Part shown: positions 31,930-36,734 of the stretch, in pieces
Position numbering within the stretch: the first letter of the stretch is position 1
Layout of the letters: each line of letters starts with the position of its first letter
Assembly (NCBI GenBank): GCA_035308805.1
Contig: DATGFZ010000537.1
Location: 1 to 50,640, forward strand
Length of the DNA: 50,640 nt
Origin: Puia sp.
GTDB lineage: Bacteria; Bacteroidota; Bacteroidia; Chitinophagales; Chitinophagaceae
Direction of reading: 5' to 3'
The notes under the pieces: generated by a model
Databases searched by the model: none
Told to the model about the DNA's origin: nothing
Seen by the model: only the letters and a program-made list of their open reading frames with translations
Program-made: the position numbers and the translations under genes

Positions 31930-32547
31930 ATGCCCCCAAAACTAACCATGAGCAACACCGTTATAATTCATAAAACCTCCGACGTTGAGTTAATTAACAT
32001 GCTGAAGGCATCGGGTATTGACAAAAAAAATGCAGAAGAACAATTATTCAATGCGTACAGTTATTTTATAAAAGAAGGTCAGCGAAAATATAAATTGTCT
32101 CACGATGAAGTTTTCGATGCTTATGCAGATGCCATGCTTGCCGTAATTGAAAAGATTAGAAATGATGCATTTAAAGGACTTTCTTCCATAAAAACATATC
32201 TCTACCAGATCTTTCATAATAAATGTGTTGACTTTTTACGAAAAAAGACGACAAATAAACAAAGCGTACATCAAACCGCTTCGATCTCTGAATCAATGTT
32301 CCAGCTTTCCGACTCAGCAAAATCAATTATCAATAAGCTGATGGAAAAGACAGATTTTGACCTCTTGAAACAAAAACTGAACGAGTTGGGCGACAACTGC
32401 CGGCAACTTTTGTTACTGTGGGCAGATGGGTATAGTGATAAAGAAATTGTTGGTAAACTGACCTACAAAACGGCTGATGTTGTGAAGACTACCAGGTTGC
32501 GATGCATGGATAAACTCCGACTGCTTTACAACACTAAACTTTATTAA
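31930..32547 (+). CDS. ECF sigma-70 factor of the CHAT cassette (start may be 31948)
   Basis: DEVFDAYADAM and SIKTYLYQIFHNKCVDFLRK (sigma2); LGDNCRQLLLLWADGYSDKEI...VVKTTRLRCMDKLR (sigma4). Confidence 0.9.
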   Translation: MPPKLTMSNTVIIHKTSDVELINMLKASGIDKKNAEEQLFNAYSYFIKEGQRKYKLSHDEVFDAYADAMLAVIEKIRNDAFKGLSSIKTYLYQIFHNKCVDFLRKKTTNKQSVHQTASISESMFQLSDSAKSIINKLMEKTDFDLLKQKLNELGDNCRQLLLLWADGYSDKEIVGKLTYKTADVVKTTRLRCMDKLRLLYNTKLY

Positions 32548-33278
32548 TGGGAAATTTGGAATACATAGAAAGTTATTTTTGCAATGAATTGTCTCCAGGC
32601 GAAAGGGTACAATTCGAACAAAAGATAATCAACGATAAGGTTTTTGCGGAGGAAGTTGCTTTTTATTGCAGTGCCAAACAAATGATAAAAAATGAATTGG
32701 ATTCCGAAAAGAAAGAACAGTTCAGAAAGATATATCAGCAAACTAATGCTTCTCATCAAAGCAAAATAAATGCTACAAAAATATGGTTGCTTTCTGCATC
32801 GGCAGCCGCCATTGTTGCCATTGTTTTTGGATGGTATTTATTTGAAAAGCCTGTTTCAACACCACAATTGGCTGATAAATATATACTAGAGCACTTTCAA
32901 ACATTAGGCATTAGGATGAGCAGCAGGCAAGACAGCTTGGAGATTGGCGAAGGTTTATACAATGATGGCAAATTTCCCGAAGCGTTACAACAATTTGAAA
33001 GAATCATTAAAAACAACACGGAAAGTTTTGAAGCAAAAAAATACGCGGGTATTGTTTCCCTCAAATTAAAGAATTACGACAAAGCATTAGCATACTTCTC
33101 ACAAATAGAAAACGATTCCGTTTTTTCCAACCCTGCAAAAATATACAAAGCAATTACCCTGATGGAACGAAACAATGCGGGCGACAAGGAACAGGCAAAA
33201 GAATTATTGCATCAGATAATTCAAAACAACCTTGATGAAAAGGAAACCGCGGCAGAATGGTTAAAGAAGAAATGGTAA
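32547..33278 (+). CDS. Putative anti-sigma factor: cytoplasmic N-domain, TM helix, periplasmic TPR
   Basis: Coupled to the sigma gene by TAATG. IESYFCNELSPGERVQFEQKI..D..FAEEV; TM IWLLSASAAAIVAIVFGWYLF; TPR-like GEGLYNDGKFPEALQQF and AGIVSLKLKNYDKALAYF. Confidence 0.8.
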   Translation: MGNLEYIESYFCNELSPGERVQFEQKIINDKVFAEEVAFYCSAKQMIKNELDSEKKEQFRKIYQQTNASHQSKINATKIWLLSASAAAIVAIVFGWYLFEKPVSTPQLADKYILEHFQTLGIRMSSRQDSLEIGEGLYNDGKFPEALQQFERIIKNNTESFEAKKYAGIVSLKLKNYDKALAYFSQIENDSVFSNPAKIYKAITLMERNNAGDKEQAKELLHQIIQNNLDEKETAAEWLKKKW

Positions 33279-33308
33279 TTCTATTTTATAATTTAAAAAC
33301 TTACAGCA

Positions 33309-33761
33309 ATGTCGAATGAAAAGTTATCACGAATCCCGTTTAATACAAAATCGGAGTATTATGCTGAACTGGAAAAATCATTGATATTAAACATCAGCAA
33401 TGTAATTGATTTTATAGGATTGGATTGGCTGCAACATTGGGCACCAATTTCTTTTAAAGATATCACTACTGCAGATCAAATTTCTGGTAGAAAAACCAAT
33501 ATAGAGCTAATTGCATTAGGACTACTTTTCCAGTATAATTTAAACCACCCTGAAGACCCCAATGTTCCTTATTCGCCCGGCGTAAAGTATTGGACTGACC
33601 ACGGGGACGGAACACAATCATATCATTTATTTCTTATACCACCGGTTACTTCTCAATTCCAACATGGTGGTGGTGGTGGCAAAGGCGCGCCTGCTGGCAC
33701 TTCTGGAGGTTCTTCCAGTGTTACGCCGCCTTCACCTCCTCCACCTCAGCCTCCCTATTGA
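33309..33761 (+). CDS. Hypothetical protein with Gly/Ser linker and C-terminal poly-Pro tail
   Basis: 30 nt after the anti-sigma stop, with an A-rich leader; ends GGGGGKGAPAGTSGGSSSVTPPSPPPPQPPY; no signal peptide visible. Confidence 0.8.
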   Translation: MSNEKLSRIPFNTKSEYYAELEKSLILNISNVIDFIGLDWLQHWAPISFKDITTADQISGRKTNIELIALGLLFQYNLNHPEDPNVPYSPGVKYWTDHGDGTQSYHLFLIPPVTSQFQHGGGGGKGAPAGTSGGSSSVTPPSPPPPQPPY

Positions 33762-33890
33762 TTGCCCGACACCATAGTAAACCATAATCATGCGGTGGGA
33801 ACAATCGAATCGGGCCACGCATTAACGGATAAGGTTCTGTAAGATTGTAGCGGAATTTACAGGATCTTCTTTAATCAAAGAATTTAATCA

Positions 33891-36734
33891 ATGGATCTGA
33901 GGAAAATCGTCTTTGTTTTGATTTGTTATTGTTGCTTCTGCAACCTTCTGTTAAATGTATCCGCGCAATGCCCGGGCAGCAATTCAGTATGGAAGAAAAT
34001 CTTATTACTCCGCGATTCTTCCAAACTTTCTCTTTCAGAGCGACTAAATTTATTGTCCATCGAAGAAAAAGAAATTAAAGATTGTCCTTACCATGATGAC
34101 TCTACACATGCTTTTATTCTGGAACAAATTGGACTGATATATGCAAAACAAGGCAATTTTATAGAGGGGATAGAAAAACTCAGACAGGCTAATGTAATCA
34201 TGAATGCCAATATCAATAAACCTTCAATTAATCCTAGGCGCCTTATTTCAAGTTATTATTGGATCTCGACTTTTTTCGATTCACTAAATCAGGTAAGCCA
34301 AAGAGTGCAATCGTTGGACAGTTGTGCAAAGCTGGCTATACAAATAAAATCTGTGGATCTTGTTTGCCTGTCCGCTTTGTACAAAAATCTTGAATATTAT
34401 TTTGATATTGGCGATTATCATCGTTGTATTGATTATGCAAATACCTGCGAGCATTTAAGCAAGGAGTTTGCACTTAAAGGGAACAAAAAAAATTTCGAGT
34501 ACGGCATGTGGTATGCATCGAGTACCCTTAGCTGGATAATCAATTCATTACTGCAACTAAAAAAATATGATGTTGCCGAAAAAATATTAACTGAAAAAGA
34601 GAAGGTTTATTCTACCGATCTGAAATATAGCCTTGGAGCCATTTATGAGCAACTCGCAGAAGTCCAACTTCACAAAGGTGATTATGAAAATGCGCTCAAG
34701 TTCTATAAACTTGGCTTTGCGGTCGAACGGAAAATGGGTGAATATCCCGGATGTGTAGCCATATTAAATAACATCGGTAACGTTTATATTGGGCAGTTTA
34801 ATGATACAGATACCGCATTGTATTATTATAGAAAAGCCCTTTCTTATGATAAAAGAATTACAGATAAAGCTGCGAGGGCGATTGAGTCATTAAATGTGCT
34901 TTCCAATATAGCTGATGCTTATGTTAAACAGCAAAATTTCGACTCTGCCTATATTTATTTTCAACTTGCATTCGACCAAATAAAACCGGGTATGGGAGAA
35001 ACAGAACTTAGTAAAATTCCTTTGAACGAACTTGGGCGCCAAAAAAAAATAGGTTATCTAACCAATAATTTAATAGATAAGGGAGATGCATTTCGTTATC
35101 AGTACGAGATCACCGGACAAACAAACGCGATTAAAGAAGCGGTTCATACTTATAAAACCACCGATGGATTACTTGATAGAATTAAGCTGGAACAATCTGA
35201 TATTGAATCGAAACTTTTCTGGAGAAGTGACAGCCGCAGGGTATATGAACATGCGATAGACGCTTGCTATTCCTATAATAATTTTGAGGATGCATTTTAT
35301 TTCCTTGAAAAAAGTCGCGCTGTTTTATTAAATGATCAGCTTAGGCAATTAGGTAGAAGCAATAACGATGATATCTTACAGCAGGCACAGATAAAGAAGA
35401 AAATATTACAACTGGAAAAAGATATAAGTTCTACAGACCCTATCTCAAAAAAGTATGCTGCATTGCAAACAGAACTTTTTACAGCCAAGCAGGAATCATA
35501 TAGAATTGAACGATCAATCAAAACACATAATCCTATTTATTATCAAAGTTTTCTGGACACAACATTTATCACGCTAAAAGATGTTCAAACAACATTATTA
35601 AAAGATCATCAGGCTTTAATTGAATTGTTTAATGGTGACAGTAGCGTTTATTCTTTATTAATTACTCCGCAACAAACATATCTTAACAAGATTGATAAGA
35701 AAGATTATGAACGGAGCATAAAATCATACATTTCTTTTGTTTCTTCCCCCGCGTTACTGAACAGACATTATGTAGAATATAATAAGATTGCATTTCATTT
35801 ATTTCAATTAATTTTTGGGAAAAACGGTTTGCCAGACAGTCGCATTATCGTTTCTCCCGGTGAAGAATATTTTCCATTTGAATCGCTCGTAACAAATTCA
35901 GATTTTCAATCGCCGGTTTATTTTTTGAATGAACACGCGGTGAGTTATACCTATTCCGCACGTTTTTTATTGAATGATTTTTCTGTTTCCAACAGATCCT
36001 CAAAGAACGATTTTCTTGGAGTTGCCCCGGTAAAATATGCTTCATCACTTTCTCTGCCGTCTTTAAACGGAAGCGATAAATCATTAAACGCGATTGAAAG
36101 GTATTTTGGTGCAACAGATAATTATGTTGCTGACAGCGCAACAAAAACCAATTTTACCAATCAATTTTCAAAATATAGAATCATCCAGTTATACACGCAT
36201 TCATCCGATACAAGCTCACGCAACGAACCGGTGATTTTTTTTCAAGATTCCGCTTTGTATCTCTCTGAATTGATTCCAGAAAATAAACCTTCTACGCAAC
36301 TCATCGTGTTATCGGCTTGCGAAACGGCAAACGGGCAACTCTATCGTGGAGAAGGAGTTTTCAGTTTTAATCGCGGATTTGCTGCGCTGGGTATTCCTTC
36401 CTCAGTGACCAATTTGTGGTCTGTTGATGATCAATCGACATACAAACTCACCGAGCTTTTCTATAAATACCTTGCAAGAGGATTGCCTTTGGATATTGCT
36501 TTACAAAATGCAAAAAAGGAATTTATACAAACTGGTTCAAAAGAATATTCATTGCCTTATTACTGGGCTGCGCCCGTATTGGTCGGGAAGACTGATGCGG
36601 TTGTATTGACCAATAACTTCTCACGGAAGATATTCTTTTTTTCAGCAGCGGTTTGTTTGCTTGTGTTTTTTGCAGTAAAATATTTTATAAGAAAAAGATC
36701 GGCGCAAAAAAATTTATCCCAGCTCGGGGTATAA
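33891..36734 (+). CDS. TPR-CHAT (caspase/HetF-like, clan CD) protease, exported and C-terminally anchored
   Basis: Signal peptide ...NVSA/Q; TPR repeats; [24 protein letters not shown] (His); LIVLSACET (Cys); [24 protein letters not shown]-terminal TM followed by RKR. Confidence 0.92.

What the first reader, a model, noticed from the sequence alone, without database searches (positions are those of the whole stretch)
31930..36734. ECF sigma / TPR anti-sigma / orphan poly-Pro protein / periplasmic TPR-CHAT protease: candidate caspase-like signalling system
Seen: four co-oriented genes between housekeeping DUF4293 and glyA. Sigma and anti-sigma are translationally coupled (TAATG). The anti-sigma has one TM and a periplasmic TPR. 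The CHAT protein has a signal peptide, TPRs, an intact His (YTH, ~36198) and Cys (SACET, ~36318), and a C-terminal anchor, so protease and anti-sigma C-domain are predicted to face the same compartment. Known: CHAT domains are caspase/separase-like proteases gated by TPRs; in type III-E CRISPR the TPR-CHAT Csx29 cleaves Csx30, which binds a sigma factor; anti-sigmas are commonly destroyed by site-1 proteolysis. Inferred: a CRISPR-independent circuit in which a ligand-activated CHAT clips the anti-sigma, perhaps in the juxtamembrane TLGIRMSSR linker, to release the sigma. Sigma-TPR-CHAT neighbourhoods recur in Bacteroidota, but I know of no mechanistic description.
Basis: partly seen in the sequence, partly recalled or inferred. 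Interest (0 to 1): 0.85.

Follow-up and report, generated by a model that had tools for sequence, protein, structure and literature searches.

The report
Caspase-like sigma switch with swappable sensor
Four neighbouring genes form a conserved module in which a caspase-like protease, predicted to face the periplasm, likely cuts a membrane-bound inhibitor to release a transcription factor, and the protease's front end is swapped between strains together with a small proline-tailed protein that is likely its trigger, which would make this a strain-specific signalling circuit not found in the papers searched.

Summary
Three comparative results are new here.

(1) Cut site. The anti-sigma's juxtamembrane loop residue (Met124) co-varies with the two clan-CD S1-pocket positions of the paired CHAT. 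Arg loops go with Glu731+Asp847 (21 of 21); Met/Leu loops never have Glu731 (0 of 57), and the switch to Met occurred twice.

(2) Swappable cassette. The third gene and the N-terminal TPRs are hypervariable between conserved flanks. Strains with identical anti-sigma DNA carry unrelated third genes, and the TPR tree follows third-gene class (8 changes, against 15 and 16 for the catalytic domain and anti-sigma).

(3) Feedback. An ECF-type promoter motif lies inside the anti-sigma gene (33053-33083), under synonymous constraint, and precedes third-gene/CHAT cassettes that have moved elsewhere (7 of 7).

Best reading: a split, trans-acting version of Myxococcus DdvA/DdvS, with CHAT as site-1 protease gated by an allele-matched Pro-rich ligand. 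No cleavage or binding is shown, and this genome's third protein has no evident export route.

The parts
31930..32547 (+). ECF sigma factor (205 aa; start possibly 31948)
   Evidence: TIGR02937 above cut-off, PF04542
32547..33278 (+). Single-pass anti-sigma candidate: N-terminal cytoplasmic domain without HxxxCxxC, TM res 81-99, C-terminal TPRs predicted periplasmic
32916..32918 (+). Met124, predicted P1 residue of the CHAT cut in the juxtamembrane loop
   Evidence: Met in 79 of 83 close homologues; co-varies with CHAT columns 731 and 847
33053..33083 (+). ECF-type promoter motif (TGTTTCC-N-CGAC) inside the anti-sigma gene, 226 nt before the slot gene
   Evidence: second-highest score in the genome; same site in 31 of 83 homologues; synonymous constraint
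33309..33761 (+). Slot gene: 150-aa protein with small alpha/beta core, G/S linker and Pro-rich tail; no signal peptide; one allele of a polymorphic slot; candidate ligand precursor
33891..36734 (+). TPR-CHAT protease: signal peptide, Gln26, TPR superhelix, CHAT domain with His770/Cys810, C-terminal membrane anchor
33972..35000 (+). Hypervariable N-terminal TPR region (res 28-370) that travels with the slot allele; candidate sensor
36081..36083 (+). Ser731, predicted S1-pocket anchor on helix alpha1 (Glu in Arg-type modules)
36429..36431 (+). Asp847, second predicted S1-pocket position
31855..31884 (-). Decayed copy of the same promoter motif, facing a divergent secreted-protein gene that relatives keep and this locus lacks

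Best explanation
The membrane-anchored TPR-CHAT protein is likely the site-1 protease of the neighbouring anti-sigma: a Pro-rich segment of the small third protein likely binds the allele-matched N-terminal TPRs, the CHAT domain would then cut the anti-sigma after Met124, and the freed sigma is predicted to transcribe the third gene and CHAT from a promoter inside the anti-sigma gene. Shown from sequence: gene set, invariant dyad, conserved linkage, loop/pocket co-variation, joint swapping of the slot gene and TPR front end, and the promoter motif. Inferred: periplasmic topology, sigma binding by the anti-sigma, the cut itself, completion by an RseP-type protease (one is in the genome), ligand binding, and that the feedback is positive. 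My separate odds: CHAT cuts the anti-sigma about 0.7; this sigma reads the motif about 0.75; slot product is the allele-specific partner of the TPRs about 0.55; it activates rather than inhibits about 0.4.
For: Linkage: CHAT lies beside the anti-sigma in 33 of 36 family loci, the 3 misses at contig ends; 23 of 39 CHAT-anchored loci across the phylum hold sigma plus anti-sigma, 13 divergent, 8 convergent, 2 co-oriented. Dyad intact in 51 of 51. The fold matches Csx29, DdvA and separase best. Pocket: column 731 was the most discriminating of 400; Glu in 21 of 21 Arg-loop CHATs and 0 of 55 Met-loop ones; column 847 is Asp in 21 of 21 against 13 of 55. L086 and L107, nested among Arg-types (support 0.98 within 0.995), have a Met loop and lack Glu731; the 3 Lys-loop loci have Glu847. 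These positions match the P1 anchors described for clan CD (PMC4626109; PMC10317155). Cassette: window vs L001 sigma 85%, anti-sigma 77%, TPR 35-44%, catalytic core 93%; L113 and L115 are 100% identical over the anti-sigma yet carry unrelated slot genes; slot class needs 8 changes on the TPR tree, 15 on the catalytic and 16 on the anti-sigma tree (minimum 7, shuffled 19). Promoter. RseP homologue present.
Against: No experiment exists. The window's slot protein has no signal peptide or TM, and no C39 peptidase-transporter, signal-less S8 or C39-like partner was found in this 88.5% complete genome, so it is unclear how it would reach a periplasmic TPR. Slot and TPR are adjacent, so joint swapping could be hitchhiking; the partial Mantel correlation is modest (r 0.20). 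Loop/pocket co-variation rests on about three independent changes. The internal promoter is absent in 17 of 45 CHAT+slot loci. 17 of 40 genus-level loci have no adjacent CHAT and 16 of 39 CHAT loci no adjacent sigma pair. In DdvA, CHAT activity has not been demonstrated (PMC11506125).
Confidence: 0.5

Rival explanations
1. CHAT cuts the anti-sigma, but the slot product is an allele-matched inhibitor or pseudosubstrate (securin-like), so the embedded promoter gives negative feedback; the true trigger is foreign, such as a phage or competitor protein or envelope damage.
For: Fits all linkage, pocket, cassette and promoter data equally. Exported slot types resemble by eye and by local alignment the N-terminal region of S8 proteases (L033 best match L036, score 91), and protease prodomains are usually inhibitors (established knowledge). 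DdvA is proposed to sense phage proteins.
Against: Slot products as short as 46-82 aa share only a Pro-rich tail, which suits a short ligand. Several classes travel with their own peptidase (S8 or C39-like), as processed precursors do. No defence genes were seen beside the window module.
Confidence: 0.22
2. The slot gene is cargo or an effector of the sigma regulon, or the CHAT's substrate, and does not gate the protease; the TPR front end diversifies against outside ligands and drags the adjacent gene along by recombination.
For: Cytoplasmic-type slot proteins are topologically separated from the TPRs. Adjacent DNA recombines together. Type III CRISPR CHATs cut neighbouring proteins.
Against: Slot class tracks the TPR tree across genera while the nearer-kin anti-sigma and catalytic domain do not. 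Unrelated carriers converge on a Pro-rich motif. The pocket co-varies with the anti-sigma loop; its co-variation with slot sequences was not tested.
Confidence: 0.2
3. The CHAT protein is a non-cutting scaffold or co-receptor that shields the anti-sigma; another protease does site-1 cleavage.
For: DdvA dyad mutants behave like wild type at rest and no activation is known. The loop after Cys810 is poorly modelled (res 812-821, pLDDT under 50).
Against: Dyad invariant in 51 of 51, catalytic core is the most conserved part (93% vs L001), and pocket residues track the anti-sigma loop.
Confidence: 0.08

Closest known systems
DdvA/DdvS of Myxococcus xanthus (PMC11506125; parts 1-5 of 10 read: abstract, introduction, results, most of discussion)
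   Same: ECF sigma, single-pass anti-sigma, periplasmic TPR-CHAT with His-Cys dyad; proposed CHAT site-1 cut then RseP; a gene of unknown function and a peptidase follow ddvA; Foldseek ranks DdvA 3rd and 5th.
   Different: There the TPR-CHAT is fused to a zinc-binding anti-sigma and would self-cleave, and the regulon is CBASS/CRISPR. Here the protease is a separate protein with its own signal peptide and C-terminal anchor, the anti-sigma has no HxxxCxxC motif (0 of 83), and a swappable slot/TPR cassette is present.
Type III-E CRISPR Csx29/Csx30/CASP-sigma (PMC10028731; passages)
   Same: A separate TPR-CHAT cuts an anti-sigma in a loop; one Csx29 cuts after Met (stated in PMC11506125); the sigma's motifs lie within its own locus.
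   Different: Cytoplasmic and activated by Cas7-11 bound to RNA. No Cas gene is part of this module; the sigma scores 34 bits against a cut-off of 100 on NF041236.
ECF54 of Actinobacteria (PMC7826278 supplement; passages, file cut when stored)
   Same: ECF encoded near subtilases and a TPR-CHAT protein, as in many loci here.
   Different: 100% Actinobacteria, no putative anti-sigma, different predicted promoter (GTATCAG/CTCC).
Pherotype loci comQXPA (PMC4408185; passages) and staphylococcal agr (recalled)
   Same: Polymorphic signal and receptor region between conserved flanks, with the regulator inducing its own signal (the flank pattern and autoinduction are recalled, not from a call).
   Different: Those use histidine kinases and modified peptides with dedicated export; here the receptor would be a caspase-like protease and no export route is shown.

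Membership tests
CHAT / clan CD protease | PF12770 domain with His-Cys dyad | tested here: met
   E 7.6e-38; invariant in 51 of 51
CHAT / clan CD protease | Separase/Csx29-like TPR-CHAT fold | tested here: met
   model pLDDT 82.6; top Foldseek hits Csx29, DdvA, separase, with low whole-chain TM 0.2-0.4
CHAT / clan CD protease | Proteolytic activity | not testable with these tools
   needs an assay
DdvA/DdvS | TPR-CHAT fused to the anti-sigma | tested here: not met
   separate ORFs with a gene between them
DdvA/DdvS | Zinc-binding anti-sigma domain | tested here: inconclusive
   HxxxCxxC absent in 83 of 83 and no Cys/His conserved in the N-terminal consensus; DdvA's CHCC variant was not searched as such
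DdvA/DdvS | Regulon is a CBASS/CRISPR island | tested here: inconclusive
   no PADLOC hit beyond a generic TPR and a weak DndE match for the four proteins; top motif hits precede secreted or lipoprotein-like ORFs; no genome-wide defence scan run
DdvA/DdvS | Periplasmic TPR-CHAT plus RseP-type site-2 protease | tested here: met
   topology predicted from hydropathy and Gln26; TIGR00054 over cut-off in own genome
Type III-E CASP | Cas7-11, Csx30, Csx31 in the locus; CASP-sigma family | tested here: not met
   flanks are uvrA-like, DUF4293 and glyA; NF041236 far below cut-off
ECF54 | Actinobacterial, no anti-sigma, GTATCAG/CTCC promoter | tested here: not met
   nearest named locus is a Chitinophagaceae MAG; anti-sigma candidate at +1; different motif
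Peptide quorum sensing (agr/comQXP kind) | Polymorphic signal-receptor block between conserved flanks | tested here: met
Peptide quorum sensing (agr/comQXP kind) | Signal gene under the pathway's own regulator | tested here: inconclusive
   motif in place and constrained; that this sigma reads it is inferred
Peptide quorum sensing (agr/comQXP kind) | Export and processing route for the signal | tested here: inconclusive
   not found in this incomplete genome; many other alleles carry a signal peptide, a TM helix or a neighbouring peptidase
Peptide quorum sensing (agr/comQXP kind) | Allele-specific, density-dependent activation | not testable with these tools
   needs cross-activation assays

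The most novel reading that the evidence does not exclude
A pherotype-like kin or density sensing system in Bacteroidota built on a caspase-like receptor-protease: a self-made Pro-rich peptide, exported or released by lysis of kin, binds an allele-matched TPR, fires the CHAT, cuts the anti-sigma after a clade-specific residue and induces its own precursor, with signal and sensor swapped as one cassette between strains.
Probability: 0.35. Interest if true: 0.92.

Novelty: new variant of a known kind. Interest (0 to 1): 0.8.

Why it matters
The signal that activates DdvA is unknown and its CHAT cut is unproven, and most bacterial TPR-CHAT proteins have no known substrate or trigger. This module offers a candidate substrate with a predicted bond (after Met124), a pocket code that can be swapped (Arg with Glu731/Asp847, Met without Glu731), a candidate trigger encoded next door in many natural alleles, and a promoter for a reporter. 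That makes 'a caspase-like protease as site-1 protease' directly testable. If the trigger is self-made and allele-specific, it would be a peptide communication system for Bacteroidota.

Tried and rejected
Complex prediction of CHAT with the slot protein was not available, so there is no model of any pair. The profile search of the slot family against 1.84 billion representatives was still queued at the end, so family breadth rests on the loci fetched and (3 hits of 60 candidates, one the query). A profile-profile test of slot proteins against S8 prodomains was not completed; that homology rests on local alignment scores and inspection only. The slot model is weak (pLDDT 63.7) and matched nothing clearly (best Z 4.0 of 48,161 chains; Atlas best 0.77); this shows neither a new nor a known fold. 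Sigma-70 promoter and terminator scans gave chance levels (17 vs 19.2; 3 vs 4.0). The 33755-33895 spacer folds at z -2.5 (5 of 200 shuffles), not followed up. Reads: one RNA run holds two short contigs (33203-33372, 34024-34214), too little to show expression; run X1 may be the source sample. Sigma autoregulation was considered and rejected: the upstream motif faces away from the sigma gene. The genome-wide motif excess is modest (24 hits at 17 bits or more vs 6-13 in two mononucleotide shuffles), so the wider regulon is a lead only. The bacterial TRADD-N/EACC2-caspase and CATRA systems (PMC8195603, passages) did not match this gene set.
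Full report
OBSERVATION. The four ORFs, the TAATG overlap, both hydrophobic ends of the CHAT protein, the single TM of the anti-sigma candidate and the His770/Cys810 dyad are as described. Gln26 after the N-terminal hydrophobic stretch is conserved in at least 90% of 19 aligned CHATs, which fits the Bacteroidetes Q-rule for signal peptidase I substrates (PMC5837995, PMC10653852; search listing with start of abstract only). 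With a C-terminal anchor, this predicts that TPRs and CHAT face the periplasm, like the anti-sigma's C-terminal TPRs. The AlphaFold model (pLDDT 82.6) finds Csx29, DdvA and separase as its best matches. The genome holds one CHAT gene and one slot gene of this kind. The nearest named locus is from a Chitinophagaceae MAG.

CO-OCCURRENCE. The anti-sigma matched 63 of 251 family genomes and 57 of 104 genus genomes. I fetched 40 of 72 and 40 of 69 listed places. CHAT lay within the fetched stretch in 33 of 36 stronger family loci (the 3 misses run to contig ends), 1 of 4 weak ones, and 23 of 40 genus loci. Five genomes from the 17 genus misses were searched and all five hold 2-4 CHAT genes elsewhere. 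In the other direction, the CHAT matched 58 of 301 phylum genomes; of 40 places fetched out of 69, 39 had a called CHAT and 23 of these held sigma plus anti-sigma: 13 divergent, 8 convergent, 2 co-oriented. Linkage therefore survives rearrangement but is not universal. Kin are not independent, so these are descriptions, not tests.

THE LIKELY CUT SITE. Met124 in the loop between TM and TPRs is kept in 79 of 83 close anti-sigmas while its neighbours vary. In most distant homologues the same place reads Arg followed by Gly, Ser or Ala. I split the paired CHATs by that residue and ranked all 400 C-terminal columns without a prior. Column 731 came first: Glu in 21 of 21 Arg-type, 0 of 55 Met-type. 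Column 847 was Asp in 21 of 21 against 13 of 55. In the model, 731 is on the first helix after strand beta1 of the catalytic domain and 847 starts the helix after beta5, 37 residues past the Cys. These are the two places described as P1 anchors in caspase-3, gingipain-R, MALT1 and separase (PMC4626109, passages; PMC10317155, passages). The two groups are largely two clades, which alone would be one event. But a tree built without those columns puts L086 and L107 inside the Arg clade; both have a Met loop (L107 read by eye) and have lost Glu731, and the three Lys-loop loci have Glu at 847. Counting L107 and the one Leu-loop locus, 0 of 57 Met/Leu-type CHATs have Glu731. That is about three independent changes. 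It is the strongest evidence here that the anti-sigma is the CHAT's substrate, and it stays indirect.

THE THIRD GENE IS A POLYMORPHIC SLOT. The place after the anti-sigma holds signal-less proteins of 110-210 aa with a Pro-rich tail, lipoprotein-like proteins, secreted S8 subtilases with a Pro-rich linker in some, or peptides of 46-82 aa, most with a hydrophobic helix and a Pro-containing tail. Some signal-less classes travel with a signal-less S8 or a C39-like peptidase. Against its syntenic relative L001, the window is 85% identical in sigma, 77% in anti-sigma, 35-44% in TPR res 28-370 and 93% in the catalytic core, with 16% in the slot. DNA homology to all six close loci tested ends at 33292-33311, just past the anti-sigma stop. 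L113 and L115 are 100% identical over about 800 bases of sigma end and anti-sigma, then carry unrelated slot genes. On 28 loci with hand-assigned slot classes (left out: S8a2-type loci, two singletons, unclassified and partial loci), the same tree method needs 8 class changes for the TPR region, 15 for the catalytic domain of the same proteins and 16 for the anti-sigma (minimum 7, shuffled 19). IQ-TREE gave 9 and 14 for the first two (the second a quick tree). The partial Mantel value is r 0.20, p 0.0005, over 703 pairs. Slot and TPR front end thus move as one block between conserved flanks. Adjacent DNA can hitchhike, so this does not prove contact.

AN EMBEDDED PROMOTER. A two-block motif emerged upstream of the sigma gene in 37 of 57 dereplicated loci. 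Read as TGTTTCC-N-CGAC it faces away from the sigma, toward a divergent gene for a secreted protein of about 184 aa. This locus lacks that gene and its copy has the lowest score of the 37. The second-best copy in the whole genome lies inside the anti-sigma gene, 33053-33083, facing the slot gene. The same site scores 13 bits or more in 31 of 83 close anti-sigma genes, against 1 of 83 for any site on the other strand and 0 of 24 distant genes. Synonymous codons follow the motif in 73 dereplicated genes: TAC 47 of 71 (background 29%), GAC 38 of 58 (38%), GTT 30 of 37 (32%); thirteen other conserved Tyr/Asp columns gave 10-52%. It is present in 28 of 45 loci with CHAT and slot, 2 of 8 with CHAT and no slot of 70 aa or more, and 1 of 20 without downstream CHAT. 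Of 14 dispersed CHAT genes fetched (of 15 listed), all 7 of the window's type have a slot gene with the motif in front (six at 19.5 or more, one at 12.8). The 7 of another type, preceded by a 290-306-aa lipoprotein, have none directly upstream; one 12.1 hit lies inside an upstream ORF. That this sigma reads the motif is inferred from position and from the resemblance to ECF -35/-10 pairs such as TGTT/CGT.

MECHANISM. The most likely chain is: ligand binds TPR, CHAT cuts after Met124, an RseP-type protease (present) finishes the anti-sigma, sigma transcribes slot, CHAT and some secreted proteins. The ligand is most likely the slot's Pro-rich segment, the only feature its many carriers share. 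The weak point is topology: this allele has no signal peptide, and no C39 transporter or partner peptidase was found in the 88.5% complete genome. Release by lysis, an unassembled exporter, or a role as inhibitor or cargo all remain open.

WHAT IS KNOWN. DdvA/DdvS is the precedent for a periplasmic TPR-CHAT proposed as site-1 protease of an anti-sigma, in fused form and without a known signal (PMC11506125, parts 1-5 of 10). Csx29/Csx30 is the precedent for a separate CHAT cutting an anti-sigma (PMC10028731, passages). ECF54 shows that ECF, subtilase and TPR-CHAT neighbourhoods were catalogued in Actinobacteria (PMC7826278 supplement, passages; the file was cut when stored, so a Bacteroidota group could be described in the part not seen). 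Searches listed no paper on this Bacteroidota module; the library lacks most subscription journals. Earlier notes of this scan describe the same module on other DNA; a word search for pocket co-variation and allele swapping returned none.

VERDICT. Real, conserved and probably functional. It works like DdvA/DdvS but is not a member: the protease is separate and a swappable slot/TPR cassette with its own promoter motif is added. New variant of a known kind; interest 0.8, because it yields a predicted bond, a pocket code, candidate ligands and a reporter.

Noticed in passing
window:31460-31790: Relatives carry a divergent gene for a secreted ~184-aa protein with no Pfam hit here, behind a strong copy of the motif; this locus lacks it and the motif has decayed. 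Six distant paralogues lie elsewhere in the genome.
   Followed up: partly
G000:C551, C509, C227, C654, C214 (L157-L161): Top genome-wide motif hits precede lipoprotein-like or secreted ORFs, including two paralogues of 381 and 367 aa that both have the motif: candidate regulon.
   Followed up: partly
L173-L179, L077, L078, L080, L088: A second CHAT subtype is preceded by a 270-320-aa lipoprotein ending in a Pro-rich motif followed by hydrophobic residues, without this promoter motif.
   Followed up: no
L034, L037, L045, L047, L148, L180, L181, L184, L186: One slot class is regularly followed by a signal-less S8 subtilase; the window's class is followed by a C39-like peptidase after CHAT in L038, L053 and (by inspection) L183.
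   Followed up: partly
L053:6238-7562 and L039: Tandem arrays of two or three different slot genes before one CHAT; L033, L053, L055, L064 and L075 hold two CHAT genes.
   Followed up: no
L082, L090, L093, L100, L101, L105: In one distant family the CHAT follows two conserved genes of about 325 and 650 aa, divergent from the sigma pair.
   Followed up: no
window:31930-31950: The sigma may start at the second ATG (31948); L115's ORF starts there.
   Followed up: partly
window:27227-27808: A second, unrelated ECF sigma gene lies 4 kb upstream on the - strand.
   Followed up: no
window:33755-33895: The slot-CHAT spacer folds better than most shuffles (z -2.5); it could attenuate CHAT relative to slot.
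   Followed up: partly
window:36714-36734: The CHAT and glyA ORFs converge and overlap by 21 bases.
   Followed up: no
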